Shown piece after piece: positions 4,908-33,493 of a DNA stretch of 64,000 nt (its first letter is position 1; each line of letters opens with the position of its first letter). The notes beneath the pieces were generated by a model. The model did no database searches, was not told where the DNA came from, and saw only the letters and a program-made list of their open reading frames with translations. Position numbers and translations under genes: made by a program. The stretch is from Azolla caroliniana. Lineage: Eukaryota; Plantae; Polypodiophyta. The stretch covers positions 4,340,001 through 4,404,000 of the forward strand of contig JBHGNT010000021.1 of the NCBI GenBank assembly GCA_043228905.1, written 5' to 3'.

Positions 4908-4959
4908 AGCCGGTTTTCTTCGGTATCTACCCGTCTCTGGCGCATGCCGGTGGATGCGT

Positions 4960-4976
4960 GGTTTGGTGGGGGTGGA
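4960..4976 (+). promoter_or_regulatory. polypurine tract of copy A
   Basis: GGTTTGGTGGGGGTGGA lies directly before the TG of the 3' LTR. Near-identical tracts abut the 3' LTRs of B, C and D. Confidence 0.8.
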
Positions 4977-5638
4977 TGTCGTGAAGAAAACCGGCCATAG
5001 GTGGAATCAGAGAAAAAGGCGCATGAACCGGCTCTTACATGGGTGGACGCGAGAATTGATATTTTGTACATAATTCATAATTAGGTCGGCTGATGTAAAT
5101 ACTAGGTAGTACACATTTATTAGGGGATTTGTGCGTATCTCTGTCAAAAGTGACATGGAATAAAGCGATTTGACTAGGGGAGAAGGGTCTCCCCTTGGCG
5201 AACTATTTAAGGAAGGAGAGAAGGAAGAAAAGGGACGACGCATTGGCGAGGACGAAGTGCTGCTGCAGAACCGAGTGCCAAGCTCTCTCTCCTCCGATCG
5301 TCGTTCTCTGTGGGTGTCGAGCGTTCGCTGCCTCTGCTTCGTGGACAACCCGTGTGCTTCCAGTAGAGGCTCTCCCCCCTTTTGATTCTTCGAGGCGAGT
5401 GGTTGTCGTCTGTGTGCGTGAGTAGGACCCAGTGTCAGGTCCATTACCGGTTTGCCGGTTGTAATTGTTCAAGTTGTAAGCTACTGATTATAGTCATCGG
5501 ATCCCTGTTTCTTGCTCTTATTTTCTTTCTGTGTGTCTGCAAATCTCTCTCTCTCTCTCTCTCTCTCCCACTCTCTCCTTGGTCCAAGACTCCCGTGGTC
5601 CCGCCTCTTCCTACACGCACGTGCGAAACTTCGCGACA
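4977..5638 (+). repeat. 3' LTR of copy A (662 bp)
   Basis: Termini TGTCG...CGACA, follows the PPT, and its 5' part aligns with the LTR of copy D (25346 onward). Confidence 0.9.
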
Positions 5639-7735: not shown

Positions 7736-7775
<40 letters not shown>

Positions 7776-9097
7776 GAGGGAGAGCATGCGCGCGACACCG
7801 ACTCTTATGCATAAGAAACGAAGGGGTTGTGCTCCCGACACCACCAAACACCAATATGCACAAACAGATATGAGTATGTATATTGCAGGAGAAAGAATAC
7901 AACTGTCATACCCAAATGGGACATTTCCAATATGCCGAATCGGGTGAGTTGTGTCATCTCTGGTTTTGACATAGCCGGGTCAATCGGGCTTTCTCAACTC
8001 TCAGAACCAATCTTCGTGAGACGTCATATGATTGGACGTTCTAAAGTCTACAAACCATACATCGTCTGGGGAAGAGTTATTAGTCGGACCCTGTGCCAAC
8101 ATCGAATGCGCTTTATGCCTCTTTACAAACATCCTGCCATGATCATCATAATCGGAATTCGTGCCATAGTTCATGAGTTGTCAGCTAGTCGAAGCCGACT
8201 CTTGATTCTTCTTTCAACACTCCACTTCGTAGTAGCCAAGTTTTCCATATTTGTCAGTACCCGCATTCGATCAGGTTGTTGTGATGGTTCAGTCCATCAG
8301 GATGGCTCCCCCTTCTGCTGAACTCCCTAGAATTGCTCCTATCGACTTGCCAATGGTGGGTGTTGAGTTGTCAGGTCGGTTCACCTTGTCGCCCTCGTCT
8401 GAATCCTCTTCTATCGTCCGACTGGAGTAGAGCAGATGACCATCGGGTGCATGGCTCCTTTGTCGAGCGCGATTTTCTTCCACCAATAGTATCGAGTGAA
8501 GGTCGAAAAAGGAAGGTGTATTCTCCCTTGCGAGAATGACCGATTTAATCGTGTCGAATCATGGTGCTAAGCCGGCGAGGCATATTTGCACCATTTCGTC
8601 ATCGTCGATGACGACGTTGATCGATCCGAGGGCATCGCACAACTCCTTGATCTTCAAGGTATAGCTGGTGATCAACATGTCCCTCTGTTGCATATTGTTT
8701 AACTCCTGTCGAAGTTGGAGCTTATGTGCAGTCGTGTTGACTGCAAAAATCTTCTTGAGGTTGCCCCAACCTTCTTTAGGCGTTTTTGACTCTCGAATAT
8801 AGCCGAGCATGTGATTCATACACATGATGCAAGACAATACAAATACAACACACGGCTTGCGGCCTACTCCCATGCTGGGTAGTCGGCGTGTGTTGGGTTG
8901 GGTTGTAATTCATGAGCTCCTTTGATATAGGTCCAGTAACCTTGTCCGACAAGGTATTGATGCATCTTGTATTCCCAATATGCAAAGTTTGTCCCGTCGA
9001 GCTTCTCCGTAGGAAGAGTGCTTCCCATTTGAGTATTCATGATGTCAATTTCTTCTCTATTGTTGAACCGGTTCTGTTGATCGTCGGTGTGTAGCAC
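5639..9097 (-). pseudogene. copia gag-pol polyprotein, fragmented
   Basis: ORFs 8864-9097, 8559-8873, 7239-7451 (GAG-pre-integrase-like), 6804-7208, 5939-6487 and 5611-5832. Confidence 0.88.
7622..7903 (-). repeat. truncated LTR fragment (U5 end) of the gypsy family inserted in the copia protease region
   Basis: Reverse complement ends GTGGTCCCGCCCCTTCTACACGCACGCGCA...GCGACA like the LTR ends of A and D. It interrupts copia GNVPFG...KQTYLKNVLH and contains (GA)n. Right boundary is approximate. Confidence 0.75.
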
Positions 9098-12573: not shown

Positions 12574-13289
12574 GAAATCTAGTGTAAATGTTACCTTTGG
12601 GTTCTACTTCTTTAGTGCTATCTTTCGATCATCATTCTCTACCTTCTATACCCACTAAGAGCCAATTTCCTCAATGTCGATTTTCCATATAAATTAACGA
12701 AGATATGCAAGTTCTTTATGTAAAAATTATCTATTTAATTGAAATATCTAATATATCATTTATTTAATTAAAGCAAACATATATCTTAATTAGTGTAGTG
12801 ATTAGGTGTCCCTAAACATAATGCATTGACACTCCTAGCTCCACCAAGATAGATTCCATCAAGGGTGCTAGATGTGAGGGTTGCTTCCAACTTTGGGAGG
12901 CGTTGATAGGGGTGGGTGATGGGCGGTATATAGTGGCTATGGGAGCATAAATTTGTGAGGTGGTGTGACATCAGGTAAGGTGGCTTGAAGGATGTGGGAG
13001 AGGAGGAGAGGATTGACGAGGATTATATGGATGGAGAGATTATTTGAAGTAGACGAATTCTTCACATGGGTCACAAGTATGTTTGGAGGCATCATTGCAT
13101 CAAAAGATGACGCATAGTGACACAAATGAGCTAGGTGTGCATCATGGATTGGAAAGAGAGAATTGGTGGCATTATGATGAAAGTGAAGTAGGAGTGCACA
13201 ACAATAGGGCAACCATTTGGGGCTTGGTAGGGCCTTGATTGAGGTTGAAAGCAAGGACCCAGGTTGAGTGCTTGAATCAATGGAAACAT

Positions 13290-13853
13290 TGTCGTGTTGT
13301 CACGCGTGCGTGTAGGAAACTAAGGCAGGACCGCGGGGGCCCTGGACCGAGGAGTGTGCGAAGATAGAAGGAAAAGAGGAAGGAAAGAGAAAGAACGGCA
13401 GACACCAGGTACCAACAAGCACAACACTTGCCAGTTCAGACAAGGACTCGACAACACGCCAAAGATAGACAGAGATTACACTTAGGAAGAGTCGATTACA
13501 ACCAAACATAGGCTACAACATGGATTGATACAAGAAAAACAAAGGTCGGTGCTCGGTTCCCAGTCCGACAACACTTCCTCCTCCCCAAAACGCCATCCCC
13601 CCTCAGTCTTTCCTCCCCCTCCTTTATAGGCCGCTCCGGGTGAACCGTTACATCCTAGTTACATCACCTTTATTCTCTATCCCTTCGGACAGAGATACAC
13701 CTTGATTTGCTAACCTATTAATATGTTTATACTTACATCACGCCGACCTATTCTTAAATAAGTTACATTAACTTAAATTGGTGCGTATCAGTGTAAAACC
13801 CGTTCATGCGTTAGGACTTCCAATTCCTCCTATGGCCAGTTTTCTCCACAACA
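13290..13853 (-). repeat. 3' LTR of copy B
   Basis: About 94% identical to 32143-32706 by manual count; PPT (TTCACCCCCACCAAACC on +) is adjacent. Confidence 0.95.
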
Positions 13854-13928
13854 TTCACCCCCACCAAACCACGCATCCACCAGCATGCGCCGAAAAGAGA
13901 CAGATACCGGGAGAAAACGGGCCCGTGG

Positions 13929-16005
13929 TCAACCGTCGCTCTCCGAATCATCGTCCGCTCTCTTCGGGACAAGCTCATTTTCGTGCCGCTTCTTGAACGC
14001 CTTGATTCTCTTCCCCCCCACTGGTACCACTATCCGCGTTCTGTCGAGCTCCGCGAGATGGTAGGTGCCGTTGTTGTTCGCGCCCGTTACAGCGTAGGGG
14101 CAAACCACCTCCTCGTGAACTTACACATTGCCTTGTGCTGATTGTCGCGGTTGTTGTCGTAAACCAGCACCCAGTCGCCTTCCTCGATCTTCTTCGCTCC
14201 TAGCCGGTGCGTCCCGTCAAATCGGCCTTTATTCTTCACCCTTGCTGCGTGTAGCTTCACCTTCGCCCGGTCCACGTCCTCCAGTCTTCACTCGAGCTAG
14301 CGAATCCGTGCCGCCAACAACTCTTCTTGGCTCATCTCGTCTCTCCAGTCCACTACTGCCCATGAGGAAATCGTCCGCTCCATCGGCATGATCGGCTTTT
14401 GCCCGTACATCAGCTCTGTCTGCATGAACACGGTTATCGAATTGTGCATAGTTCGGTGCACCCATAACGCGTAAGGTAGGAGTCGCGGCCAGTTACTGAC
14501 TTATCCTTCGCACGCTCGTACTAACGCCTTCACGATTGGCCCGTGTCCTCGCTCCACCTTCCCGTTCAGCTTCGGATTGTACGTTGTAATGAGAGAGAGC
14601 TTAACTGGCCAAACAACTCCTCGGCTTCTTGCACGTCCAACTCTCCCTGGTCACCCACGATCTTCCCTATGCACCCGTATTGGCATATCACCTCCTCAAT
14701 CAGGAATTGAAAGACGACCGCAATCGTCTTGTTCTGCAACGCACGACCCTCCACTTGGTTCGTCAGGTCCTCTCGTGCAAGCTCCAGGCACCACATCTGC
14801 CCTACCCCCATCGGCATCATCACTAAGTCCACCATCCATTTGAAATGGACAGTTGGTGGGTATGTCGGGTGAAGCTCGTCTCGGTGCCGGATCACGGAAT
14901 GCACTTGGCAGCTTTCACAGGTCGTCACGAATTGGTGCACGTCTTGGTACATTCCCAGCCACCAATACTTCTCCTTCAGCTTCTCGAATGTAGCCCACGT
15001 TCCACGGTGTCTGGCCCAAGGGCACTCGTGATACGCCAATATCAATGCCTTCTGTTCCTCTACTCTTGCCGCTATCCGGAGTAGAACACCGTTTCGCTTC
15101 TTCGGATGCCTCCATAAGCTCCCGTCCCGCAGGAAGAACCGGAACAAATTCTTCCGGATCCAGTTTGCCTCGTCCCTCGTCCATGTTGTGTCTGGTGTCA
15201 ACGTCCTCAAGTACCTACCGATCTGGAGCCACTCCTCATCGTACTCACCTTCATTGAATTCGTTAAGTGTCGGTGTGCTCCCTTCTCTTGCCGCTATACG
15301 TGCCGACTCGAAGAAGTCTACGCCGACTTCTTTGTCTTCAGAAACCATGCCATCTTTGTCATCGAATTGTGCTTTGGAAAGCATGTCGGCCATGACGTTG
15401 TCCTTCCCGGAGATGTGTCGTATCTCCGGATTCAGGGACTTAATGTACGCGATCCACCTTAGCATTGCCAGGTCGGGCGTCACGCATCCAGAAACCATAT
15501 CAAGGATTGGTAAGCAGCCCGTCTCGATTATTACCTCCGTCTCGATAAGATAGTCTTTGTCGGCCTTAACTACCGAAACGATACCCCAGAGTTCGCGCTT
15601 AACTTGGGCGTACCCCCGCTACTGCTCGCTTAGTCCCTTCGCTCCGAACCGGATGGGGACCCTCGTGCCATTTCTGTCCTCCTGATTGATTAGTCATCCG
15701 ATCCCGGTCGAACTCGTATCCACGGTCACATATATCGGAACCTCCCTTCCGTAAATCGCTTTCCGAAGTGCCAATGCCATGGTTAGCGCTTCCTTCAACC
15801 TCTGGACCGACTTCGTATGCTCCTTGTTCCAATCGAACTTACGCCCCTTCTTCAACAACGTGGGCGTAATGTGGAATCCAGATGTGATAGAATGCACACG
15901 TGCCCAAAAACCTTTGGACCTCCGTAACCGACTTGCATTCTTCCTTTATTGCGGAGATGGCTTCCACCTCCTCGAAAGCAGATTTCTCTCCAGAGAAGGT
16001 GAGCC
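13929..16005 (-). pseudogene. copy B pol 3' part (RT end, RNase H, integrase)
   Basis: ORFs 14087-14275, 14566-15498 and 15694-15897 are homologous to pol of copy A. Confidence 0.88.
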
Positions 16006-16009
16006 ATGA

Positions 16010-16656
16010 TGTCGTGTTATTCTGCACGCGCAGGAGAAACCAAGGCAGGATCGCGGGGCCCTGAACCGGGGAATAACCGAACGGAGGGAGGAGCGACATG
16101 AAACCACGGCCGAGCCACGCACACAAATACACAGAGAACTCACAACGAAGATCAAACAATGAGTAAGGCAAATATATATTTATGATCAAGATTACAACCG
16201 GCTAGCCGGTAAGCGTCAACGCGCTGACACCAACTCACACAACGCACATAGACAACGCGAGATGGAGCCTCTGCCGGAAGCACTCGGGCTTTCCACGAAG
16301 CAGAGGCAGCCTCCCAAAACCTGAAGAGAATGATGAAAGACAGATGAGAAGAGATCAGTCCTAGTTCGACAGCACTTCATCCTCCACAACGCGATCCCCA
16401 CTCAGTCCCTTTTCCTCTCCTTTTATAACCCAAGGAGAGAGAGACGTTATAGTCTGTTACATCACTTGTATTCTCTGTCCTTCCGGATAGAGATACTCCT
16501 CGATTCCCTACCTAATGAATACGCGCTACCTAGGATATTCACATCGCCGACCTGTACCTAACTATGTACAATACATCAAAACATGTGCCCGCGTGTAAGG
16601 GCTGGTTCACGCTCTCTATTCACCGATTCCTCCTAGGGACGGTTTTCTCCACGACA
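16010..16656 (-). repeat. 3' LTR of copy C
   Basis: TGTCG...CGACA termini, about 94% identical to 27298-27942, PPT adjacent. Confidence 0.95.
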
Positions 16657-16729
16657 TCCGCCCCCACCTAACCACGCATCCACCGGTATGCACCAGAATA
16701 GACCTTTGCCGGAGAAGACCGGCTCGCGT

Positions 16730-19700
16730 TTATCTTACGATCTCCGGATCGCCATCCACTCCGAACCGGTCGCCGTCGCTATCCATGTCCTGTGGGTCCG
16801 GTTCGTCCTCGTGCCCCTTCTGGAACGCCTTGATCCTCTTCCCGGCCACCGGCACAACTATTCTCATTCTGTCGAGCTCCGCAAGATGGTAGGTGTTGTT
16901 GTCGTTGGTGCTAGTCACCGCATAAGGCCCGAACCACCTCCTCGTAAATTTCTGCATCGCCTTGTGCTGGTTGTCGAGGTTGTTGTCGTAGACTAGAACC
17001 TAGTCGCCTTCCTCGATTTTCTTCGGTCGTAGTCGGTGAGTCCAGTCGAATCGCCGCTTGTTCTTTGTCCTTGCCACTTGCAGCTTCGTCGTTGCTCGTT
17101 CCACGTCCTCCGGTCTCCGCTCGAGTTGTCGGATTTGCACCGCTAACAGCTCCTCCCGACTCATCTCGTCTCTCTAGTCTACCGCGGCCCATGAGGAGAT
17201 CGTTCGCTCCATCGGTATGATCGGTTTCTACCCGTACATCAGCTCCGCCGGCATGAACCCAGTTACCGAACTGTGCGTAATTCCGTCCGCCCACAACGCG
17301 TAAGGTAGGAGCCGTGGCCAATTCCCGACTTGGCCTTCACATGCCCGTACCAACGCCTTTACGATTGGCCCGTGTCCACGTTCCACCTTCCCGTTTGCCT
17401 CCGGATTGTAAGCTGTGGTGAGCGAGAGTTTAACCCCTAACTGATCAAACAATTGTTGGGCCTCTTGTGCATCCAGTTCTCCACGGTCCACTACGAACTT
17501 CCCTACGCACCTGTACTGACATACCACCTCTTCGATCAGGAACCGGCACACGGCCGCGGTCGTCTTGTTCGATAACGCTCGGCCCTCCACCTGGTTCGTC
17601 AGGTACTCCCGTGCTAGCACCAGGTATCGCATCTGCCCTACCCCCATCGACATCCTCACCAGATCCACCATCCACTTGAAGTGGATGGTCGGCGAGTAAG
17701 TCGGGTGTAGCTCGTCCCGATGTCGAACTATGGAATGCATCTGACAGCTTTCGCAAGTCGTTACAAACCGATGCACGTCCCGGTATAGTCCCGACCACCA
17801 GTACTTCTCCTTCAGCTTCTCGAACGTGGCCCATGTCCCCCGATGTCCAGCCCAAGGACTCTCGTGGTATGCCGTCAGCAATGCTTCTGGCTCCTCCTTC
17901 CTCGCCACTACCTGGAGTGGGACGCAGTCTCGCTTCTTCGGGTGCTTCCATATGCTTCCATCCCGTAGGAAGAATCGGTATGCTTTCTTCCAGATCCGGT
18001 TAGCCTCTTCCTTTGTCCACGCTGCGTTCGACGTCATCGTTTTCAGGAACCCACCAATTTGGAGCAACTCCCCGTCGTACTTGCTCTCGTCGAACTCATT
18101 AAGCGTCGGAGTGCCCCCCTTTCTCATCGTCAGGTAAGACGTCTCGAAGAAGTCCACACTAACTTCCTCGTCCTCTAAAACCATGCCACCCTTGTCATCA
18201 AACCGCACTCTCGAAGGCATGTTGGCCATGGCATTGTCCTTCCCGGAGATGTGTTGTATCTTCGGATTCAGGGACTTAAAGTACGCTATCCACCTGAGCA
18301 ATTCCAGGTCCGGCGACGCGCATCCGAAAACCATACCGAGAATCGGTAGGCAGTCCATCTCTATTATTACCTCTGTCCCGATCAGGTAGTCTTTGTTGGC
18401 CTAGACCGCTGAAACAATACCCAAGAGTTCGCATTTAACTTGGGTGTATCCTCGTTGTCACTCACTAAGTACTTTCGCACCGAACCGAATGGGGAACCTC
18501 GTGCCGTTCTCATCCTCTTGGTTGATCACCCATCCGATTCCGGTTGGACTCATGTCTACTGTTACATAAATCGGAACATGTTTGCTGTAGACCACTTTCC
18601 AGGGTGCCGGTGCCGCGACAAGCGCTTCGTTCATTTTCCGGACCGACTCCGCATGTTCCCCGCTCCACTCGAACTTGCGCCGCTTCTTCAACAACCCGAA
18701 CTGCGGCTCCACGGTATGGGCGTAATGCGGGATCCAAATGTGGTAGAACACGCAAGCTCCCAAGAACCTCCGGACTTCTGTAACCGACCTGCAGTCTTCC
18801 TTCAATGCGGAGATAGCTTCCACCTTAGCCGGAGACGGTTTCCGGCCATAAGGCCCGCACAGGTGTCCGACGACCATGATTTCCGACTGTCCAAAAGCCG
18901 ATTTCTCCCCGGAGAAGGTGAGCCGCACGCCTTCCAGCTTCTGTAGCACCTTCTCGCAATCTCCAATGTGGTCCGAGACGAATTTCCGACACCCGTCCGA
19001 TCCGACCGTTTTGTCCTTATCCTCCACCAGACATCCCTTGATCGGAATGTCATCCAGAAACGGCATGGTGATGTCTGGGATGCAGTCCCTTAGCACCTTA
19101 TTCATCGCATTCACCATGTGCGCTACCGAGTTTGTCCCCCCTTGCAGAAGGGTACACATCCGCACTAGGTCGAGAGGAGCCTGCATTGTCGTAATATCCC
19201 TGCTCTCCAAGGCTAGTTGGAATTGGTCGTACCCCGAGTACAGATCCCCGACAGAGTAAATCAACCTTCCGGCGAACGCCTCCATGAACTCGTCAATGGT
19301 CGGTCCGATTCCTGCGTTCCGAATGGTCACCTTGTTGACCGGCTGCAGGTCCTGAGTAAAGCGCAACGTGTCGTTCTTCTTTGGCACCGTAAACCACCGA
19401 TTCGAGTACGGGGCACTCGACAGTTCGAGGATGCCCATCTCCACCTTCTGCTTCAGTAGCTCCATCAACTTCGGGATGTGAGCTATGGGCACCGGAATCA
19501 GCTTGAGATTCCACGACACATGCGGTACCGTGAAGATCACCATTGGTTCCACGATTGTCGGGTCTACACACCCGATCTCCCCGGGCGTGAATGCGAAGGC
19601 CCTTCTGTGCCTTTCGAGCAGTCCCCGAAACCGGTCCTCCTCCGCCGGCAGTAGAAAGCCACCCCCACCGACCTTGAGCTCCCGTAGCGTTATATCGGTG

Positions 19701-21214
19701 AATCAGTGTCCTATGCCGGCTGGATCTCGTAAACTTGGGTCCGACGTGACCCCTTTCATTCGTAACTCGCTGCCCTCCGGCAAGGGTGCCGTGACTGGCT
19801 TCACCCTCCAGTCCACAGTCTTGTACTTCGTATGCACATGGGTTGTCCGATCCAACTCGACCCTCTCCCCGAAGTCGGCGATGACTTCGTACATCATTTC
19901 CGAACTGACCAGAACCGTCTGATCTTCGCTGAGGCCTTCTTTGAACACCTTCTTTAATTCCCCCAAGGTGTCATCGAAAGAGACCGCCTCCACGGCTCCA
20001 CCAATCTCATCATCGGGGCCTAGGACTCCGCACACCTTGAGACGTCCCTCCGCCCGTTTCTTCTCCCGGCCGCTAATGCCGGTTATCGTACAGCCTCCGT
20101 TGTCAAAGAACCAAAATTTCCTACCTATAGTACAAGGTTTCCTTTTTATGGTACACTTGTGGGGTTTTTCCAGGGTGTCCAGACTACCACGGCCCCACGC
20201 CTTGATAGCCCTCTCTAAAAAGCCCCCCGGCTTTCGCCGCCGAGGATCTCGTGGTTCGGTCACACCGTCAGAAATTGGACGGAGTGTCGCCCATCTTGGC
20301 TCTTCACGCGTGCATACGCCAAACCGTTATCCAACACCTTCGTCTCCAACGCGCTGTTGTAATGTATGGTCCTTCGAGTATCACCGGGTGCGAGGATGTC
20401 TCCTGCACGAAGAAGTGCTGGTCAGTCTCAACATCATCGATTTTCACCCGTACATTTGGGCAGGCCCCGTGTAGCTCCTTTGTGGCGCGCGTCACCATTC
20501 GTATCTTCCACCCGTGCTTGGTGTTGATCGGCCACTTGCCCTTCTTGTAGAAGTCCATAGACATCAAGTTGATCTTTGAACCATGGTCTACCAATGCCAC
20601 CACCGGCTCCTGGATGTCTCCAATCCGAACCGGGGTCTCCATAGTGGCTCTTGCCCAATGCAACTTCAAATAGTGGCTTTCCGCCAACTCGTCTTCCAGG
20701 GCCATGTCTTCTAGGTGCGTTGTTCGCACCTCCACCTTCTTCTCCGACTCTAGCTCCGTCGAAAGCCTTTTTCACTTCACCAAGTCCACGATGGAGTCAT
20801 GGAATTCTTTCTTGGCGATCCCAAGCACCTCCGTCAGCGACAACTCCACCTTGCTGTGGAGGATTCGTTCTTCAAGGACCTTCCGTGGGTCCGTTGTTCT
20901 TTCTATCTCGGTGCTCAACCGGTAACCAGCTTTCTTTGTTTTATCCGGTGTGTCGGAAGTACTGGCGTCATTCTGCTTCGGCCCAAACCGAGTCTCGTAC
21001 TACTGCTAGGGTCCAGCCCCTCCGGCCTTCCCCGCACGCTTGTCTTCTACCACAACCTCGTAGTTCTGGCACACGGCTTCCACGAAGCCGATCTTTTCCT
21101 CGACCGGATCACTCCACCCGGTGACCTCCCGGACCCACCTTTCCGCGCGGTCCGCTTTCTCCTTCCTCAGCCGCACGCCGGCGAGGCCTTCTAGCACCAA
21201 CGACCAGAACCCAA
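16730..21214 (-). pseudogene. copy C gag 3' part, protease and pol
   Basis: ORFs 20304-20735 (VDHGSKINL), 19703-20263, 18458-19552 (RT, PFLDD), 17228-18358 (integrase) and 16730-16957. Confidence 0.9.
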
Positions 21215-21305
21215 TGTCGTGAAGAAAACCGGCCATAGGCGGAATCGGAAAAAAGGGCACATGGATCGGCTCTTACACGGATGGACGTGTGAATCGATAT
21301 TTTGA

Positions 21306-24300
21306 TACACGAAGCCGCATTGGGCTAGGGCAACCACTACACGAAGCCGCATTGAGCCAGGGCAACCACAGAAACCCCTGTACGGATCGGTAATGTTCCG
21401 GAACCGGTGGTGGCGTTGGTAGACCATGGATCCGAAATCAACTTGATGTCCATGGATTTCTACAAGAGGGGTAAATGGCCGATCAACACCAAGCATGGCT
21501 GGAAAATACGGGCAGCGATGCGCGCCACGGAAGAACTACATGGAGCCTGTCCGAACGTGCGGGTAAAATTCGGCAATGTCGAGATCGACCAGCACTTCTT
21601 CGTGCAAGAGACGTCCTCGCATCCGGTTATACTAGGAGAGCCATACATCATGGCGGCACGGATGGAGACCAAGGTGCTGGACAACGGTTTGGCCTATGCA
21701 AGAGTCAAGAGCCAGGACGGGCGTCACTCGGTCCAATTCCTGACAGTGTGACCAAACCATGAACGTAACCGTGAGGCCCTCGACGGCGAAACCCGAGGGG
21801 ATTTTTAGAGAGGGCTATCAAGGCGTGGGGCCGCGATAGTCCCGACACCCGGGAAGAACCCCACAAATGTACAGTACGGAAGAAGACTTGTACCATAGGT
21901 AGGGAATTTTGGTTCTCCAACAACGGAGGTTGTACTATGGCCGGCGTCAGCGACCAGTAAAGGAAGCGAGCGGAGGAGCGGCTCAGGACATGCGGAGTCC
22001 TCTCCCCCGACAAAGAGATCAGCGGCGTCGTGGAGGCGGTCTCTTTTGACGACACCTTGGGCGAGTTGCGAAAGGTGGTCGGTGAAGACCTTAGAGAAGA
22101 CCAGACCGTTCCGGTAGGTTCGATGGGAATGTATGAAGTCATCGCGGACTTCGGAGAGAGGATCGAATCGGATCGTACGGCCCACGTGGATACAAAGTAA
22201 AAGAATGTGGACCGGAAGCTGAGGCTGGTCGCGGCACCCTTGCTGGAGGGCAGCGAGGAGAGGATAAAAGGGGTCGCGTCAGACCTGAGTTTACGAAATC
22301 CGGCTAGCATAGGGCACCGGTTCACCGACATAACGCTACGGGAGCTCAAGGTTCGTGGGGGTGGCTTTCTACTGCCGGCGGAGGAGGACAGGTTTCAGAG
22401 AATGCTCAGAAGGCATGGGAAAGCCTTCGCGTTCTCGCCGGAGGAGATCGGGTGCGTGGACCCGATGATCGTCAAACCGATGGTGATCTTCACGGTACCG
22501 CAAGTACCGTGGAATCTCAAACCGATTCCGGTGCCGAGAGCTCACATCCTAAAGTTGATGGAGCTTCTTAAGCAGAAGGTGGAGATGGGCATCCTCGAAC
22601 CGTCGAGTGCCCCGTATTCGAATCGGTTGTATACGGTGCCGAAGAAGAACGGCACGCTACGTTTCATTCAGGACTTGCAACCGGTCAATAGGGTGACCAT
22701 CCGTAATGCAGGATTCAGACCGACCATAGACGAGTTCGCGGAGGCCTTCGCTGGAAGGTTGATCTATTCGGTCGGTGACTTATACTCGGGGTATGACCAG
22801 TTCCAACTAGCCGTGGAGAGTAGGGATATCACGACGATGCGAACTCCTCTCAGCCTGGTACGAATGTGTACCCTACCACAAGGAGGGACAAATTCGGTGG
22901 CGCATATGCTGAACGCAATGAACAAGGTGCTCAAGGACTGCATCCCGGACATCACCATGCCATTCTTGGACGACATCCCAATAAAGGGGTATCCGGTGGA
23001 AGATGAGGACGAGACTGTCGGGACAGACGGATGCCGGAGGTTCATCGTGAACCACATCAACGACTGCGAGAACGTGTTGCAGAGGCTCGAAAATGCACGA
23101 TTCACCTTCTCTGGAGAAAAATCAGCGTTCGGGCAGTCGGAGATCCTTATGGTCGGACACCTATGCGGGCCTTACGGTAGGAAACCGTCTCCGGCAAAGG
23201 TAGAAGCCATCTCCACGATGAGGAATAATTGTGGGTCGGTTACGGAGGTCCGCAGATTCTTGGGTGCATGCACGTTCTGCCACATCTGGATCCCGCAGTA
23301 CGCACATGTCGCGGAACCCCTCTACAGACTATTGAAAAAGGGGCATAGCTTTGAGTGGAGGACAGAGCACACAGGGTCGGTAGGGAGACTAAAGGAGGTG
23401 CTTACAATAGCACCGGCTCTCCGAAAAGCAGTTTACGGCAAGAATGTCCCCATTTGCGTGACGGTGGACATGAGCCCGACCGGGATCGGGTGGGTAATCA
23501 GTCAGGAGGACAAGGACGGCGTTCGATTCCCGATCCGGTTCGGGGCGAAGGTATTGAGCGAGCGGTAGCGAGGATACGCCCAAGTCAAGCGCAAGCTTTG
23601 GGGTATCGTTTCGGCGGTCAAGGCCGACAAGGACTATCTGATCGGGACGGAGGTGATCATCGAGATGGACTGCCTGTCGATACTCGGCATGGTTTCCGGA
23701 TGCGCGACGCCGGACCTAGCAATGCTCCGGTGGATAGCATACATTAAGTCCCTGAACTCGGAGATACGACACATCTTCAGAAAGGACAACACCATGGCCG
23801 ACATGCTTTCGAGAGCAAGGTTCAACGACGACGACGACATGGTTTCGGATGACGAAGAAGTCGGCGAGGACTTCTTCGGGTCGGCTAACGTAGGGACGAG
23901 GAAAAGGGACACTCCGGTGCTTAACGAATTTGAAGAAAGCAGGTACGACGGGGACTGGCTCCAAATCGGGAGGTTCCTACGGACGATGCTGCTGGACGCA
24001 GCATGGACGAGAGAGGAGGCGAGCCAGGTATGGAAGAAGGTGTACCGGTTCTTCCTGCGGGACGGGTGCATATGGAGGCACCCAAAGAAGAGAAACGGCA
24101 TCCCGCTCCGAGTAGTGACAAAGAAAGAAGAACAGGAGGAACTACTGGCGGCATTTCACGAGAGTCCCTGGGCCGGGCACCGCGAAATGTGGGCCATGTT
24201 CGAGAAGCTGAAGGAGAAGTACTGGTGGCCGGGGCTGTACCAGGACGTGCATCGGTTCGTAACGACTTGCGAAAGCTATCAGATGCACTCCACAGTCCGA

Positions 24301-25276
24301 CACTGGGACGACCTACACCCGACCTACCCGCCTACGGTCCATTTCAAGTGGATGGTGGACTTGGTGACGATGACGATGGGAGTAGGACAGATGCGATACC
24401 TGGTGCTTGCACGGGAAGACTTAACGAACCAGGTGGAAGGTCGTGCACTGCAGAACAAGAAAACCGCGGCGGTATGCTGGTTCCTGATCGAAGAGGTAGT
24501 GTGTCGGTACGGGTGCGTTGGGAGGATCGTGGCGGACCGGGGTTGTTGAGGAGTTGTTCGACCGGCTAGGCGTCAAACTCTCCCTCACTACGGCGTACAA
24601 TCCGGAGGCGAACGGAAAGCTAGAACGTGGGCACGGGCCGATCGTAAAGGTGTTGGTGCGTGCATGCGGAGGGCAGGTCGGGAATTGGTTGCAACTCCTT
24701 CCTTACGCACTATGGGCAGACCGAACTACGCACAGTTCGGTAACAAGGTTGATGCCAGCAGAGCTGATGTATGGACAGAAGCCGATCATGCCGGTGGAAC
24801 GGACGGTTTCTTCGTGGGCGGCGGTAGATTGGAAGGACGAGATGAGCCGGGAGGAGTTGCTGGCAGCGCGGATTCGGTAACTCGAGCGGAGGCCGGAGGA
24901 CATAAAAAGGGCGAAGGAAAAGCTGTGGGCGGCAAGGGAGCGGAATAAGACCCGGTTCAACCGGACACACTGGTTGCGACCGAAGAAGATCGAGGAAGGC
25001 GACTGGGTCTTGGTGTACGACAGCAGCCTCGACAATCAGCACAAGGCGGTGTGGAAGTTTGCTAGGAGGTGGTTCGGGCCCTACACGGTGACGAGCGCGA
25101 ACGACAACATCACGTACCACCTCACGGAACTCGACGGGACACGGTTAGCGGTGCCGGTATCCGGGAAGTGGATCAAAGTGTTCAAGAAGCGGTTTGAAGA
25201 CGAGCCGGAGCATGTGAGCGGGAGCAACAACGACGGTCAGTTCGGGCCCGGCGGAGAATCGGAGAGCGACGAGTGA
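21306..25276 (+). pseudogene. copy D protease and pol
   Basis: ORFs 21407-21751 (VDHGSEINL), 22207-23568 (RT/RNase H), 23653-24549, 24518-24880 and 24974-25276. Confidence 0.9.
21799..21864 (+). promoter_or_regulatory. putative -1 ribosomal frameshift signal (slippery heptamer plus pseudoknot) between gag-PR and pol
   Basis: GGATTTT-TAG is followed by stem GGGCTATC/GATAGTCC, with loop GTGGGG complementary to downstream CCCCAC. Conserved in copies B and C. Confidence 0.75.
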
Positions 25277-25345
25277 AGCCGGTTTTCTTCGGTAACTAGC
25301 CGTCTTTGGCGCATGGTGGTGGATGCGCGGTTTGGTGGGGGTGGA

Positions 25346-25925
25346 TGTCGTGAAGAAAATTGGCCATAGGTGGAATCGGCGAAAAGGGCGCATGGACCGG
25401 CTCTTACACGGATGGACGCGTGAATTGATATTTTGATATTTTGTACATGATTCATAAATGGATCGGTTGATGTAAATACTAAGTAGTACATAATTATTAG
25501 GGGGATTGTGCGTATCTTTGTCAGAGGGGACAGGGAATAAAGCGATTTGACTAGGGGAAAAGGGGCACCCCCTTTTGGGAACTACTTAAGGAGAGGAGAG
25601 AAGGAAGAGTGGGGATCGCGCGTTAAGGAGGACGAAGTGCTACAGGACCGAGGGCTGAACTCTCTCTCCTCCTCCGACCGTCATTCCCTGTGGGTGCTTG
25701 GGAGCTCGACGCCTCTACTTCGTGGGTAGCCCGTGCACTACCAGCAAAGGCCTTTCCTTCTGCATTTCTTTGGGTTCAGTGTTTTCCGCTTGTGTGCGTG
25801 AGTAGGGTCCCCGTGCCGGGCTCATCGCCGCCTTGACGGTTGTAACCGTCGAAGTTTGTAATCTCTTGTCATTGTAATTAAGTGTTCCGTTCTATATCTC
25901 TCCTTCTCGCTGCTGCGTGTCTGTG

Positions 25926-25962
<37 letters not shown>

Positions 25963-26077
25963 CTCTCTCTCTCTCTCAATCTCTCTCTCTCTCTCAATCT
26001 CTCTCTCAATCTCGCTCGTCAGTCCAAGACCCCAGTGGTCCCGCCCCTTCTACACGCATGCGCGTAACAACGCGACA
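25346..26077 (+). repeat. 3' LTR of copy D (732 bp)
   Basis: PPT then TGTCG...CGACA; contains (CT)n/CAAT microsatellite at 25927-26012. Confidence 0.92.
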
Positions 26078-27251
26078 CCGAAGTCCTTCGTCACTCCCAA
26101 CCTGGATTCCTACCGACGCCGAGTAGTGGATGGTCTCAGCATGGCACGCCGCCACTTCTTCCATCAAACGCTTCATTCCTCCGCGTCCGATGTTTAACTC
26201 TAGGGCTCTACAGGTCTCACTAGCATGCACCCTCCTATTCCACAGGTACACCACGTTAGCCCTGAGCGCTTCCGCGAAGTCCCCACGGTCCTTCCGGACG
26301 TGACCGACCACGTCACACCACAAGCACCGATGCCCAGCCGGAGGCCTTTGGTCACGAGGCTGCTCGCCGTCGTCCCTCCTTGCCTGTGCAATCTGGAGGT
26401 CTTGTACCATCTGCATCAGCTCTTCCAAAGTCGCTCCTCCGGATGGGCCTTTGACCACGTTGGTCGATGTCAAGCCTGTCTCAAGCCAATCTCGGGTTTC
26501 CTCCCTTCGCGCCGGCGGGGGTTCCTTGAGCTTTCTTGCCACAACAGATCCCGCCCCCAATGAGCCCTTGTCGCCCCACTCAGGCCGTTTGTCAAAATGG
26601 CCGCAGACTCTCTTCACCACGGTCCAGTCGGTCGTCAGCCCGTCATCCGTCTCCAGTAGGAGACCCACCTGATCTCAATCCCGCACACAACGGATTTGAC
26701 AAACAACAAGACGCAGCTCGTGTCCAGCACTGCTCTGTCTAGCAAGAGAACCACCTGATCTCAATCCCGCACACAACGGATTTGACAAACAACAAGATGC
26801 GGCTCATGTCCAGCACTGCTCTGTCTAGCGTCGCGAAGCGTTCTTCAAACTCTCGGAAAAGCGTCGACGCATTCCTCCCCGTGGTCTCCACCCAATCCAT
26901 GAAGTCCCGCTTCGATAACCGAAGCGCGTCATCAACCCCGTACCGTTTGAGGAGCCGCACTTCGAATTCTTCCCAGGTCCGGCATCAAGCCTGCACCTCG
27001 AGGACCTCTACGTGGATGCTCGGTGTCGCCACCCGAGGGAACCTAGCCAGACGCCTTTCCTCCGGGATGTCCCTCATCACCATTTCGGCTCTGTAGGTTA
27101 CCAAAGAACTCGTGGTGTCCTTCCCATCGAACTGGCCTATTGCGCCGACAATTGCTTCAATGGCCCTAACAAGGGCGCTCCTGCCCTCGCGAGCACTTAC
27201 TATCCGATTGACTGCTGCCACCATGGCTTCGGTGAGCTTTGATCCCCTCAT
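26078..27251 (-). pseudogene. copy C gag 5' part
   Basis: ORFs 26985-27251 (MRGSKLTEAM...QFDGKD), 26739-26960 and 26006-26668 (degenerate knuckle CLWCDVVGHVRKDR). Confidence 0.85.
26665..26829. repeat. tandem duplication (79 bp x2 with 7-bp spacer) within gag of copy C
   Basis: CCACCTGATCTCAATCCCGCAC...CTGTCTAGC occurs at 26665-26743 and 26751-26829. Confidence 0.9.
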
Positions 27252-27274
27252 CTTTGACTCCTCTTCCGCCTTGT

Positions 27275-27292
27275 TTCAAGTCGTGTTCACCA
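27275..27292 (-). promoter_or_regulatory. primer-binding site of copy C (tRNA-Trp-like, 2 mismatches to copy B)
   Basis: TGGTGAACACGACTTGAA on the minus strand, 5 nt after the 5' LTR. Confidence 0.75.
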
Positions 27293-27297
27293 AATAA

Positions 27298-27942
27298 TGT
27301 CGTGTTATTCTGCACGCGCAGGAGAAACCAAGGCGGGACCGTAGGGGCCCTGAACCGGGGAATAACCGAACGGAGGGAGGAGCGACATGAAACCACGGTC
27401 GAGCCACGCACACAAATACACAGAGAACTCACAACAAAGATTGAACGAGTAAGGAAAATATATATTTATGATCAAGATTACAACTGGCTAGCCGGTAAGC
27501 GTCAACGCGCTGACACCAACTCACACAACACACACGGACAACGCAAGATGGAGCCTCTGCCGGAAGCACTCGGGCTTTCCACGAAGCAGAGGCAGCCTCC
27601 CAAAACTTGAAGAGAACGATGAAAGACAAAGGAGAAGAGCTCGGTCCCAGTCCGACAACACTTCATCCTCCACAACGCGATCCCCACTCAGTCCCTTTTC
27701 CTCTCCTTTTATAGCCCAAGGAGAGAGAGACATTCTAGTCTGTTAGATCCCTTTTATTATCTGTCCTTCCGGATAGAGATACTCCTCAATTCCCTACCTA
27801 ATGAATACATGCTACCTAGGATATTCACATCACCGATTTGTACCTAACTATGTACAATACATCAAAACATATGCATGTGTGTAAGGGCCGGTTCACGCTC
27901 TCTATTCACTGATTCCTCCTAGGGACGGTTTTCTCCACGACA
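27298..27942 (-). repeat. 5' LTR of copy C
   Basis: Partner of 16010-16656; followed on the minus strand by the PBS and the gag ATG. Confidence 0.95.
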
Positions 27943-30828
27943 GCGCACTCTCGAGCCTCTGTAACACCTTCTCGTAGTCATCAATGTGGTCCACTACGAA
28001 CCTCCGGCATCTGCCCGGTCCGACCAATTCGTCCATATCCTCCACCGGACAACCTCTGATCAGGACGTCGTCCAGGAATGGCATGGTGATGTCCAGGATA
28101 CTGTCCCTTCGCACCTTGTTCATTGCGTTCACCATGTGCGCCACTGAGTTGGTTCCTCCTTGCGGTAGGGTACACAACCGCATTAAACCGAGAGGAGTCC
28201 GCATTGTCGTAATATCCCTGCTCTCTATGGCTAGTTGGAATTGATTGTATCCTGAGTATAGATCATCAACCGAATAGATCGACCTTCCAGCGAAGGCCTC
28301 CGCGAACTCGTCAATGGTTGGTTCGATTCCTGGGTTTCGGATGGTCACTTTATTGACCGACTATAGGTCTTGACTGAAACGCAATGTGTCGTTCTTCTTC
28401 GGCACCGTAAACCACCAATTCGAATACGGGGCACTCGACGGCTCGGGGATGCCCATCTCCACCTTCTGCTTTAGTAGCTCCATCAATTTCAGGATGCCCA
28501 TCTCTTGGTACCAGAATCGGTTTGAGGTTCCACGGCACATACGGTATCGTGAAGATAACCATTGGTTCCACGATCGTCGAGTCCACGCACCCGATCTCCT
28601 CCGGCGAGAATGTGAAGGCCTTTCCGTGCCTCCCGAGCATCCTCTGAAACCGTTCCTCCTCCGCTGGCAATAAAAAGCCACCCCCACCGATCTTGACCTC
28701 CCGTAGCGTTTTGTCGGTGAACCGGTGTCCTATGTTGGTCGAATTCTGCAAACTTGGGTCCGACGCGACCCCCTTTTATCGTTCCTCGCTACCCTCCGGC
28801 AAGGGAGTCGCCACCAGCCTCACCTTTCGGTCCACAGTCTTGTATTTCGTGTTTACGCGGACCGTTCGATCCAACCCGAACTCTTCCCCAAAGCCCGCAA
28901 TGACTTCGTATATTTCCACGAAACCAACCGGAATCACCCGGTCTTCACTGAGGCCACCCTCGAGCACCTTTCCCACCTCTCCAAGGGTGTCGTCGAAAGA
29001 GACCGCCTCCACGGTGCCGCTGATTTCTTTGTCAGGACTGAGGGCTCCGCACTCCCTGAGACACTCCTACACCGGTTTCTTTTCCCTACCGCTGACACCG
29101 GTTATCTTACAACCTCCGTTGTCGGAGAACCAAAACTTCCTACCTATGGTACACATGTGGGGTTCCTCCAGGGTGTCCGGACTATCACTACCCCACGCCT
29201 TGATAGCCCTCGCTAAAAATCCCCTCGATCGTCGCTGTCGAGGGTCTCTCGGTTGCACTCGTGGTTCAGTCGTACCGTAAGGAACTGAACGGAGTGGCGT
29301 CCATCTTGGCTTTTTACCCTTGCGTACGTTGAACCGTTATCCAACACCTTGGTCTCCATACGGGCTGCCATAATGCATGGCTCGCTGAGGATAACCGGGT
29401 GTGAGGATGTTTCCTGCACAAAGAAGTGCTGGTCTATTTCGACATCACCGATCTTCACGCGCACATTCGGGCACGCTCCGTGCAGCTCCTCAGTAGCGCG
29501 TGTAGCCACGCATGTTTTCAACCCGTGCTTGGTGTTGATAGGTCATTTGCCCTTTTTGTAGAAGTCCATGGACATCATGTTTATTTCGGAGCCATGGTCT
29601 ATCAATGCTACCACCGGCTCCTGGACATTCCCGATCCGTACCGAGGTCTCTGTAGTAATTGTTGCCTAGTGTAACTTCGAGTAATGGCTCTCCACCAATT
29701 CATCCTCCAGGGCCTCGTCCTCCAGGTGCGTCGTCCGCACTTCCATGGGCTTCTCCGGTTCCGGCTCCGTCGAGAGTCGTTTACACTTTACCAAGTCCAC
29801 GATGGAATCGTGGAACTCCTTCTTCGCGATTCCGAGTACTTCTCTCAATGACGGCTCCACCTTGTTGTCGAGGATCCGCTCTTCGAGGACCTTCCACAAG
29901 TCTGTCGATCTCTCAATATCCGTGCCCAGCCGGTAACCGACCTGCTTCATTTTGTCCGGTATGCCAGGATTACCAGCATCATTCTTCCTTGGTTCAAATC
30001 GAGTCTCGTACCGGTTTGCGGGTCCAATTCCTCTGGCTCTCCCCGCTGGCTTGTCCTCTACCAGAACTTCGTAGTTCTGGCACGCCGCTTCCACAAATCC
30101 GGTCTTCTCCTCAACCGGATTGGACCACCCTGTAACTTCTCAGACCCGCTGCTCTGCGCGGTCCGCTTTCTCCCTCTCCAGTCGCACCCCAAAGAGGCCT
30201 TTTAGCACCAACGGCCAGGATCTGGAGTCCTTCGTCTTTTGGCCTTCGTCGCTCCCGACCCAGATCCTGACTGACGCTGAATAGTGGACGGCCTCTACAT
30301 GGCACGCCACAGCTTGCTCCATCAGTCATTTCATTCCTCCATGTCCGGCATTCACCTCCAGGGCTCTCCGGGTGTCACTAGCATGCACTCGCCCGTTCCA
30401 CAGGTATACCACGTTACTTCTGGGCGCTTTCGTAAACATTGCACAATCTCTCCTGTTGTGGTCGACCGCGTCACACCACATGCATTGTTTTCCTACCGGA
30501 GGCCTCTGGTCACGCAATTGTTCTCCACTGTCTCTCTAGGCCTGTGTGATCTGGAGGTTGCGCACCATCTGCGTTAGCTCTTCTAAAGCCGCTCCTCCGG
30601 ATAGACCCTTGACCACGCCGGTTAGGGCCGAGCCCGACTCGAGCCAACTTTGGGTCTCTTCCTTTCGCGCCGGCAATGGCTCCTCAGACTTGCCATAGCC
30701 GGTCCTGTTGTCGCCGAATCGTCGCTCCACTCGTGCTGCTGTCGAAACGGTTGCAGACTCTCTTTACCATAGCCAAGTCGGTCGTGAGCCCTTCATTTGT
30801 CTCCAGTAGGAGACCCACCTGTTCCCGA

Positions 30829-31587
30829 TGTCGTGCCTTTCGGCTCCGGATCGTTTGCGTGAGTCGGGTGGGAACCACTGAGGTTTTGGACTAGGAAGAG
30901 GAGAGTTTTAAGGCTAATAAGAATATAAATATGTTGTAAGAAAGAGTTATAGCAAACTCGTGAATCCCACGAGTGTATTGTATTAGATTAATCAATATGA
31001 ATATAAGAATATAAACTTCGGTTGAAAGAGAATGATATAGAATTCTCGTGAATCCCACGAGTATAGTTTATTAATTGGTGTTTTTTAGAAACATATCCAG
31101 TTTCCAAGTATTTCACACACTATTACATTGTGCTCCCCATCCTTATGTAGTGATGGGAGAGACTAAGCATAGCTACATGTTTTTTCTCTAATATGTTCAT
31201 GCACACTAAATGTGCATGTGATGCTTTTCTAATCCTTGCTTTTATTTGCTAAATATAGTGCTCATGCACGCTAGATGTGCATGAGTCACTTTTTAGTTGC
31301 TTGCGTTTTTCTATAAAATATTCACGCACTCTAAAAATGCACGATTTACCTTTTAATAAAGGTAGGCGCAAATAAAGGACTTATAGTTATTAAATCTATT
31401 TATAGAACACTAAAGATAAGGTAGTATAATGGTAAAGTTGAGGTTTGGCTACGTGGAGGTACAGGGTTCGAATCTTGCCTTATGCACGTGATAAATATTT
31501 TGATATATTATTTTATTTATTTATATGTAATTAAATCGGTTATATTATTTTTACTTTTTCACGTAGTGTACGAAACACACTACGACA
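30829..31587 (-). repeat. AT-rich solo LTR E (759 bp) inserted in the gag of copy B
   Basis: TGTCGT...ACGACA termini with a perfect 4-bp TSD CCGA. Orientation is inferred from weak similarity of the 30829 end to the U5 ends of the other LTRs. Confidence 0.85.
31415..31486 (+). other. degenerate tRNA-like sequence (Pol III A and B boxes) inside solo LTR E
   Basis: A box TAGTATAATGG (31422-31432), B box GGTTCGAATC (31465-31474), acceptor-like stem ATAAGG/CCTTAT, T4 run at 31498-31501. The anticodon arm does not pair. Confidence 0.6.
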
Positions 31588-32118
31588 CCGATCCTGCACG
31601 TCCACAGATTTGACGAATAACAGGACATAGCTCATGTCAAGCACAGTCATGTCTAATGTCGAGAGCCAGGCAAACTGTTTCTCGAACTCCTGAAGGACCA
31701 TCGACGTGTTCCTCCCCTTTCCGGGGGTCTCAACCCATTCCATGAAGTCTCGCTTCGACAACCGAAGCGAGTCTTATTACCCATACCTTTCGAGAAGTCG
31801 CCCTTTGAACTCTTCCCAGGTCTGGCAGCCAGCCTACACCTCAAGCACCTCCACGTGGATGCCCGGTGTCACCACCCGAGGGAATCCGGACAGTCGTCTG
31901 TCCTCCGGGATGTCCCTCATGATCATCTCAGCCCGATAGGCCTCCAAATAACTTGTTGCGTTCTTCCCCCCGAACCGGCCTATCATGCCAACAATAGACT
32001 CGATGCCCCTATCGAGGGTACCCGTACCCTCACGAGCGCTCACTAGCTGGTCAACGGTTGCCGCCATGGCTTCAGTGAGTTCGGATCCTCTCATCTTCCA
32101 ATTCTTATGCCGCCTTGT

Positions 32119-32136
32119 TTCACGTCGGGTTCACCA
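32119..32136 (-). promoter_or_regulatory. primer-binding site of copy B complementary to tRNA-Trp 3' end
   Basis: Plus strand TTCACGTCGGGTTCACCA matches the 3' end of plant cytosolic tRNA-Trp(CCA) as I recall it. It lies 6 nt from the LTR. Confidence 0.8.
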
Positions 32137-32142
32137 AATTAA

Positions 32143-32706
32143 TGTCGTGTTGTTGCGCGTGCGTGTAGGAAACTAAGGCGGGACCACGAGGGTCCTGGAC
32201 CGAGGAGTGTGCGAAGATAGAAGGAAAAGAGGAAGGAAAGAGAAAGAACGGCGAACACTAGGTACCGGCAAGCACAACACTTGCCAGTTCAGATAGGGAC
32301 TCGGCAACACGCCAAAGATAGACAGAGATTACACTTAGGAAGAATCGATTTCAACCAAACAGAGACTACAACATGGATTGATACAAGAAAAACAAAGATC
32401 AGTGCTCGGTTCCTAGTCCGACAACACTTCCTCCTCCCCAAAACGTGATCCCCCCTCAATCTTTCCTCCCCCTCCTTTATAGGCCACTCCGGGTGGGCCG
32501 TTACATCCTAGTTACATCACCTTTATTCTCTATCTTTTCGGACAGAGATACGCCTTGATTTGCTAACCTATTAATATGTTTATACTTACATCACGCCGAC
32601 CTATTCTTAAATAAGGTACATTAACTTAAATTGGTGTGTATCCGTGTAAAACCCGTTCACGCGCTAGGACTTCCATTTCCTCCTATGGCCAGTTTTCTCC
32701 ACAACA
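32143..32706 (-). repeat. 5' LTR of copy B
   Basis: Partner of 13290-13853, same length (564 bp). Confidence 0.95.
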
Positions 32707-33190
32707 ATGCGGTCCTAAAAAATGATAGAATTGACAACTAGGCAAAGGAGTGAGAAGAAACAAATGGAAGCTTGTATGTCAAGATTAAGAATGTGGGAGT
32801 AGTTGTCAATTACTTCTTCTACGACATTATATGGTTATATAATTTGGGGAAGTTCACTCAATTGAAGAGGAGTGAGTTGCAACATTTTTTAGCATTGTGA
32901 AACTCTAACCGAAGTCATATGTAGAAGGTGGGGTGAGTATGGATAGTGGGTGGGTCAAAGTGTCAAGAATTCACGATGTTGCATAAGTTCCATTGTGTTG
33001 TCTTGACGGGTGGTAGAGCATTCATTGGTATGATTTTTGGGCACCCAAGTGTAAGAAGACATGCATTTCTTTGTGTTTTTTTAATTGTGGGGATAGCCTG
33101 TAAGGCTTGGGATTTTGTCACTACCCACAAAATTGTAGGAAGCCAAAATTATGTTGCCCCAATGAACCACCCTTGGCCTTTATTAAGAAC

Positions 33191-33410: not shown

Positions 33411-33493
33411 TATCTTGGTGTGTTTCGCAACCAAAACATGTGCTTCCGAGGGGCTAACCTTGAGTCATAGTTAGCTTTTTTAATACTCTCAAG

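What the first reader, a model, noticed from the sequence alone, without database searches (positions are those of the whole stretch)
13286..32710. A gypsy-type family that appears to integrate at CpG sites, making 4-bp NCGN target duplications
Seen: every junction of the TGTCG...CGACA-type LTRs has a 4-mer with central CG or a CG-deamination product. Solo LTR E has CCGA/CCGA (30825-28, 31588-91; the 5-bp flanks do not match). Copy D has CCAA/CCGA, and a 4-bp duplication restores the host gag spacing seen in copy A. Copy C has ATGA/GCGC, with exactly 4 extra bases relative to the host ESARLTF frame but 3 mismatches. Copy B has ACAT/ATGC, explainable as ACGC/ACGT deaminated on opposite strands. 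The single visible flanks are CCGT (copy A, 5639-42) and TCGT (7618-21). The unrelated solo LTR at 45802 has an ordinary 5-bp TSD. Known: plant LTR retrotransposons usually make 5-bp TSDs with weak sequence preference, while 4-bp CG-containing targets are known for Drosophila errantiviruses such as ZAM and tirant. Inference: a CpG-specific, possibly methyl-CpG-directed, integrase in a CpG-rich element would steer new copies into older copies and away from AT-rich gene space. This could explain the nested pile without a chromodomain.
Basis: partly seen in the sequence, partly recalled or inferred. Interest (0 to 1): 0.82.

Follow-up and report, generated by a model that had tools for sequence, protein, structure and literature searches.

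The report
Phygy-like retrotransposons insert at CpG
These nested plant jumping genes do insert with a four-base duplication centred on CG, but that habit is already published for the moss Phygy lineage they likely belong to, and nothing tested here shows that they sense methylation.

Summary
All six junction sets in the window carry a CG or a decayed CG (CA/TG) at the centre of the flanking 4-mer, and host spacing gives exactly 4 extra bases for C, D, E and X. In independent metagenome contigs, 33 of 42 left flanks and 19 of 23 right flanks have CG in the register of a 4-bp duplication (background 0.039). Loose-end consensus in four sequencing runs ends in ACGT. The trait is already published: Neumann et al. 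2019 list Phygy (186 Physcomitrella elements) with 4-bp NCGN TSDs, a tRNA-Trp PBS and no extra domain. The window elements match these features, but no Phygy sequence was available for a tree. Small addition: the preference is narrower, (A/C)CG(G/T), and avoids TCG. Methyl-CpG targeting is untested; no reader domain was found. Only 10 of 63 outside flanks lie in same-lineage DNA and 19 of 63 are AT-rich, so strict steering into older copies is not supported. The scan noted NCGN TSDs before, in a fungal window.

The parts
13290..32706 (-). Copy B, Ty3/gypsy element (6,717 bp without nested inserts); LTRs 13290-13853 and 32143-32706, 93.6% identical
13286..13289 (+). B left flank ACAT (CA centre)
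32707..32710 (+). B right flank ATGC (TG centre)
32119..32136 (-). Primer-binding site of B; exact complement of an 18-nt CCA-ended plant small RNA (miR894 family); tRNA-Trp identity recalled
16010..27942 (-). Copy C nested in B's reverse transcriptase (7,066 bp without D); LTRs 16010-16656 and 27298-27942, 93.6% identical; flanks ATGA (16006-09) and GCGC (27943-46)
17228..18400 (-). Integrase region of C (zinc-binding and rve core); tail has the GPY/F SH3-like part and an acidic end, no chromodomain
21215..26077 (+). Copy D nested in C's gag region; 5' LTR cut to about 96 bp, 3' LTR 25346-26077; flanks CCAA (21211-14) and CCGA (26078-81)
30829..31587 (.). Solo LTR E, AT-rich, different family, nested in B's gag; perfect TSD CCGA/CCGA (30825-28, 31588-91)
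1..5638 (+). Copy A (5' end outside window); RT-RH ORF 2004-3350, integrase 3351-4907, 3' LTR 4977-5638; right flank CCGT (5639-42) in a copia element
7622..7902 (-). Fragment X, shortened LTR of the A/D type inside a copia element; flanks TCGT (7618-21) and CTGT (7903-06, boundary inferred)
45802..46297 (.). Unrelated solo LTR in a LINE with 5-bp TSD ATGAG (control)

Best explanation
The window holds nested non-chromodomain Ty3/gypsy retrotransposons, likely of the Phygy lineage, whose insertions carry a 4-bp duplication centred on CG, and their integrase likely selects that short palindrome directly by sequence and shape rather than by methylation. Shown: 4-bp register, central CG, a narrower (A/C)CG(G/T) preference, no reader domain, and decay of the duplicated CG to CA/TG in older copies. 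Inferred: the intasome makes a 4-bp staggered cut and needs a sharp bend at a flexible pyrimidine-purine step, as known for retroviruses with 4-bp TSDs, with extra base contacts choosing CG over TA/CA. Inferred: later methylation and deamination erode the two TSD copies independently. Inferred: nesting follows passively, because the elements are about four times richer in CpG than their surroundings.
For: 33 of 42 left and 19 of 23 right outside flanks have CG in the 4-bp register. Loose-end consensus before the LTR start ends in ACGT in 4 of 4 runs (34, 53, 25, 29 contigs; 3 samples) while the rest agrees at only about 0.4; the other LTR end gives ACGT in one listed row (13 contigs). 35 of 51 CG sites are (A/C)CG(G/T) against 0.19 in flank background, and T at the outer base is 1 of 51 against 0.34. 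E-type LTR ends in three loci have CCGG, ACGT and ATGT. Phygy per PMC6317226 Additional file 5: 4 bp 100% NCGN, tRNA-Trp 81%, no extra domain. Window PBS and domains fit. Central YR selection with 4-bp TSDs is described in PMC4422553. Ginger1 uses CCGG/CCGT/ACGG and the ZAM group CGCG.
Against: No Phygy reference sequence could be placed in the tree, so membership rests on shared features. B and C (6.7 and 7.1 kb) are below the Phygy range of 7.7-10.0 kb. Only 1 of 11 outside contigs with both flanks has an exact 4-bp duplication; 7 PPT-LTR-PBS joins in that call suggest chimeric assembly, but this was not proven. YR bending alone does not explain why CG beats TA or CA. The biases at the bases next to the LTR may be inflated by later CHG deamination. 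No integrase assay or methylation data exist here, so independence from methylation is not shown.
Confidence: 0.75

Rival explanations
1. The integrase or a host tether prefers methylated CpG, which would steer new copies into silenced repeats.
For: 3 of 6 window insertions are in same-lineage copies and 2 in copia. At least 20 of 63 outside flanks hit some retroelement with a very small library. Phygy is enriched at centromeres of a liverwort, and Phygy-in-Tcn1 nesting is common in P. patens. A precedent for methyl-guided retrotransposons exists in CopiaMBD.
Against: No MBD or chromodomain in window ORFs or 9 lineage proteins, while the control protein P0227 shows its chromodomain. Strong avoidance of TCG points to sequence readout. 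CG-centred targets occur in a host without methylation. B and 19 of 63 outside flanks are AT-rich. Decay of TSD CpGs shows methylation after insertion, not before.
Confidence: 0.15
2. Same integration chemistry, but in a sister lineage distinct from Physcomitrella Phygy that shares the NCGN habit by descent or convergence.
For: Shorter elements than Phygy. No Physcomitrium-named hit among the listed rows of three protein searches (120 of 196, 115 of 115 and 120 of 168 rows shown, most unnamed). The RLG2 transcript start (400 letters seen) shows no evident likeness by eye.
Against: TSD, PBS, lack of chromodomain and aRH, and compact coding layout all agree with Phygy. Relatives occur in Riccia, Calypogeia and Adiantum in one clade, and Phygy has been annotated in a liverwort. 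A P. patens small RNA with a genomic precursor is complementary to B's PBS region at 19 of 20 bases.
Confidence: 0.08
3. The pattern is an artefact of CpG-rich hosts and of accepting CA/TG as decayed CG.
For: Only E is a perfect pair; B matches at 1 of 4 bases and C at 1 of 4. CA+TG make up 11-17% of host dinucleotides.
Against: Intact CG in 33 of 42 outside left flanks against background 0.039 and 0-2 of 42 in other registers, including flanks with GC 0.29-0.35.
Confidence: 0.01

Closest known systems
Phygy, non-chromovirus Ty3/gypsy clade of Physcomitrium patens (Neumann et al. 2019, PMC6317226)
   Same: 4-bp TSD with NCGN preference; PBS of the type recalled as tRNA-Trp; no chromodomain or aRH; polyprotein fills the internal region.
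   Different: Different host (a non-seed plant; 'fern' comes only from an untested earlier scan note); B and C are 6.7-7.1 kb against 7.7-10.0 kb; here the motif resolves to (A/C)CG(G/T) with TCG avoided; phylogenetic membership untested.
Selgy and TatI (same paper)
   Same: 4-bp TSDs in non-seed plants; TatI also uses tRNA-Trp.
   Different: No NCGN preference reported; Selgy uses tRNA-Ala and averages 5.0 kb; TatI has aRH, not seen here.
Ginger1 DNA transposons (PMC2836005)
   Same: Gypsy-type integrase with GPY/F motif, TGT termini, 4-bp TSD CCGG (75%) or CCGT/ACGG (24%), which lie within the same (A/C)CG(G/T) set.
   Different: Cut-and-paste DNA transposons of animals; the commonest target here is ACGT.
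Drosophila ZAM/Tirant errantiviruses (PMC5408687)
   Same: Palindromic 4-bp CG-containing target (CGCG).
   Different: env-bearing insect elements with AGT/AnT termini; their target has GC rather than CG at its centre; host lacks DNA methylation.
CopiaMBD of arthropods (PMC6673714)
   Same: Retrotransposon accumulating in CpG-dense regions.
   Different: Carries a captured MBD; none was found here, and the specificity here is at the cut site.

Membership tests
Ty3/gypsy | Domain order gag-PROT-RT-RH-INT between LTRs, with PBS and PPT | tested here: met
   protease seen only weakly by Pfam, in relatives P0187 and P0190
Phygy | Clusters with P. patens Phygy in RT-RH-INT trees (the primary definition) | not testable with these tools
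   REXdb fasta (Additional file 3) too large to read; no Physcomitrium-named hit; tree has no Phygy row
Phygy | 4-bp TSD | tested here: met
Phygy | NCGN target motif | tested here: met
   51 of 63 outside flanks CG, 9 more CA/TG
Phygy | PBS for tRNA-Trp | tested here: inconclusive
   PBS is the exact complement of an 18-nt CCA-ended small RNA; the Trp identity is recalled; searches for a matching tRNA gene found nothing
Phygy | No chromodomain, no aRH, no extra ORF | tested here: met
   one sub-threshold RVT_3 hit (E 0.047) in P0138 overlaps its ordinary RNase H
Phygy | Size 7.7-10.0 kb (descriptive; the paper calls size of little value for classification) | tested here: not met
   B 6,717 and C 7,066 bp; both copies are decayed
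Chromovirus (Tcn1, Tekay, CRM and others) | Chromodomain at integrase C-terminus; mostly 5-bp TSD | tested here: not met
   long branch away from chromodomain-bearing rows
TatI | Additional archaeal-type RNase H | tested here: not met
Methyl-CpG-guided retrotransposon (CopiaMBD-like) | MBD domain; binding to methylated DNA | tested here: not met
   no MBD by Pfam; binding itself not testable here

The most novel reading that the evidence does not exclude
The integrase catalytic core itself senses 5-methyl-CpG in an (A/C)CG(G/T) palindrome, without a chromodomain or MBD. An old lineage across mosses, liverworts and ferns would then home on silenced DNA and consume its own targets as methylated CpGs decay.
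Probability: 0.12. Interest if true: 0.7.

Novelty: new member of a known kind. Interest (0 to 1): 0.2.

Why it matters
As it stands it extends a one-line published remark (Phygy inserts at NCGN) to another non-seed plant and sharpens the motif to (A/C)CG(G/T). That makes these integrases a usable natural case of base-specific target choice in plants, and it warns that TSD-based annotation will miss older copies because the duplicated CpG decays. If methylation sensing were shown, it would be a new route of heterochromatin targeting without a reader domain.

Tried and rejected
No whole genome is held, so the genome-wide TSD table could not be made. The search for related loci in viral contigs found no relative. 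Three protein searches gave no Physcomitrium-named row among those listed; cluster look-ups of 10 proteins gave no organism names; the Atlas search gave only generic integrase clusters. Supplement of PMC7466625: the RLG2 transcript is cut at 400 letters and was uninformative. Neumann Additional file 6 gave clade labels only. Searches for a tRNA gene matching the PBS were empty. Outside contigs with both flanks were rejected as a test of TSD identity (1 of 11 exact; 2 of the 11 had bad LTR-end calls; chimerism likely). Summed contig depths were not used as copy numbers. An apparent short TGTCG..CGACA element at 7622-7797 was rejected in favour of an end near 7902. The count of 18 'same-lineage' flanks printed mixes in 8 low-identity protein hits to other retroelements; 10 is the blastn count. 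No fold or complex job was run.
Full report
Setting. No genome is held for this window. Self-comparison and ORFs show a pile of GC-rich (about 54%) Ty3/gypsy copies in 38% GC DNA: A (to 5638, +), B (13290-32706, -), C inside B (16010-27942, -), D inside C (21215-26077, +), solo LTR E inside B (30829-31587) and fragment X (7622 to about 7902) inside a copia. Pfam gives RT, RNase H, integrase zinc and core domains, a weak DUF4100 and a weak SH3-like tail. Named relatives are from Riccia, Adiantum and Calypogeia, so the host is a non-seed land plant by inference; 'fern' comes only from an earlier AI note and was not tested.

Observation in the window. Against uninterrupted paralogs the insertion C adds 4 bases in 3 of 3 comparisons, E adds 4 against A and 5 against the locally rearranged C, and D adds 4 by inner anchors, the automated figure being spoiled by a 14-nt deletion. 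X turns out to have a second junction with 4 extra bases against the copia in L025, flanks TCGT and CTGT (boundary inferred). Only E is a perfect pair and B matches at 1 of 4 bases. Five of six insertions keep an intact CG on at least one side, against host CpG frequencies of 0.036-0.076. The solo LTR at 45802-46297 has a 5-bp TSD. The copies are several families, not one.

Independent test. A 25-letter LTR-start pattern that finds all 7 A-D termini in the window was scanned, slightly loosened, over metagenome contigs: 86 matches in 85 loci, of which 41 are PPT junctions and 45 external, 42 distinct after removing 3 duplicates. CG lies at -3,-2 in 33 of 42, CG/CA/TG in 40 of 42, background CG is 0.039, and neighbouring registers give 0-2. 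Of 37 matches with a called LTR 3' end, 23 distinct right flanks were external, and 19 have CG at +2,+3; two rows with bad end calls were dropped for later counts (21 kept). CG at -3,-2 and at +2,+3 is compatible only with a 4-bp duplication. Against this, only 1 of 11 contigs with both flanks shows an exact duplication; 7 PPT-LTR-PBS joins in the same set suggest that short-read assembly joins different copies across the LTR. These contigs come from a few related, unnamed assemblies and need not be the window's species. Contigs of four runs holding the window's DNA were laid on PPT plus LTR start: loose ends before the LTR give a consensus ending in ACGT in all four (34, 53, 25, 29 contigs; three samples, one of which may be the window's source), with otherwise low agreement. 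The other LTR end gave the same in the one row listed. Pooled, 51 of 63 flanks have CG, 35 of the 51 are (A/C)CG(G/T) against 0.19 in background, and T at the outer position is 1 of 51. E-type ends in three loci read CCGG, ACGT and ATGT.

What is known. PMC6317226 (passages, section 9, Additional file 5 whole, text of file 6; files 1 and 3 unreadable, and they hold the per-element TSDs and the domain sequences that would bear on motif and membership) states that Phygy elements have an insertion preference for NCGN, and lists 186 elements, 4-bp TSD 100%, mean 8,628 bp, tRNA-Trp PBS 81% and no extra domain. PMC6911290 (passages, supplement search with two picture files unsearchable) reports 4-bp TSDs with GC-rich centres and Phygy nested in Tcn1. 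PMC12885004 (two passages) annotates Phygy in a liverwort, enriched at centromeres. PMC2836005 and PMC5408687 (passages) give CCGG/CCGT/ACGG for Ginger1 and CGCG for the ZAM group. PMC4422553 (passages) links 4-bp TSDs to a flexible central YR step. PMC6673714 (abstract and introduction) describes MBD-bearing copia and notes loss of methylation in D. melanogaster. PMC7466625 (passages, supplements in part) did not help with membership. PMC5846777 and PMC1838911 (passages) were used for the PBS. I found no paper testing methylation dependence of Phygy integration or giving the narrower motif in the listings of searches; the library lacks most subscription papers.

Membership. TSD length, motif and absence of chromodomain and aRH are met. 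The PBS complements a CCA-ended 18-nt small RNA; its Trp identity is recalled and my searches for the tRNA gene were empty. Sizes are below the published range. An RT tree of 44 rows puts the window copies in a supported clade with liverwort and fern sequences, far from chromodomain-bearing rows, but has no Phygy reference and has long-branch warnings. So it works like Phygy and is probably a member; the defining tree test is open.

Mechanism. Shown: 4-bp register, CG centre, flanking base bias, no reader domain. Inferred: direct readout of a bendable palindrome by the intasome, later deamination of the duplicated CpG, and passive nesting from CpG density (0.075 in the elements, 0.019 elsewhere). 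On steering: 10 of 63 outside flanks hit same-lineage DNA within 400 nt, about 10 more hit other retroelements, median GC is 0.445 and 19 have GC of 0.40 or less. Assembly favours unique flanks, so nesting is underestimated, and without the genome share of the family no enrichment test is possible. B sits in DNA with CpG 0.009. Methyl-CpG direction is neither shown nor excluded.

Earlier scan notes. e1-10582392 reported NCGN TSDs in a fungal window and pointed me to Ginger1, which I checked in the paper.

Verdict. Real, robust and largely known: interest 0.2, new member of a known kind. The methyl-sensing reading has about 12% probability and would merit 0.7.

Noticed in passing
window 32119-32137; PMC1838911 Table 1; PMC5846777 Table 3: The PBS of copy B is the complement of the so-called miR894; the original P. 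patens clone 1-39 matches B's PBS region at 19 of 20 bases, so this 'miRNA' is probably a tRNA 3' fragment or a retroelement PBS (inference).
   Followed up: partly
window 21215-21310 vs 25346-25441: D's LTR stub differs from its 3' LTR by K2P 0.14 although D is nested in C, whose LTRs differ by 0.067; short alignment, CpG decay or recombination could explain it. A tandem repeat of about 33 bp sits at the deletion junction near 21310-21370.
   Followed up: partly
window 30829-31587; L016, L038, L056: E is a separate AT-rich LTR family with internal tandem repeats that also shows CG-centred flanks; its lineage is unknown because no internal region was seen.
   Followed up: partly
window 26652-26829: 86-bp tandem duplication in C's gag region, not an insertion.
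   Followed up: no
window 5639-9230: Decayed Ty1/copia element on the minus strand, host to copy A and fragment X.
   Followed up: partly
window 37501-38724 (-): 407-aa ORF with a weak C-terminal DUF761 hit (E 0.03); likely a host gene about 5 kb from the pile.
   Followed up: partly
window 41400-48400 (-): Broken LINE (DUF4283, zf-CCHC, RT, zf-RVT) carrying the 5-bp-TSD solo LTR.
   Followed up: partly
window 33191-33413: 110-bp tandem duplication, 98% identical.
   Followed up: no
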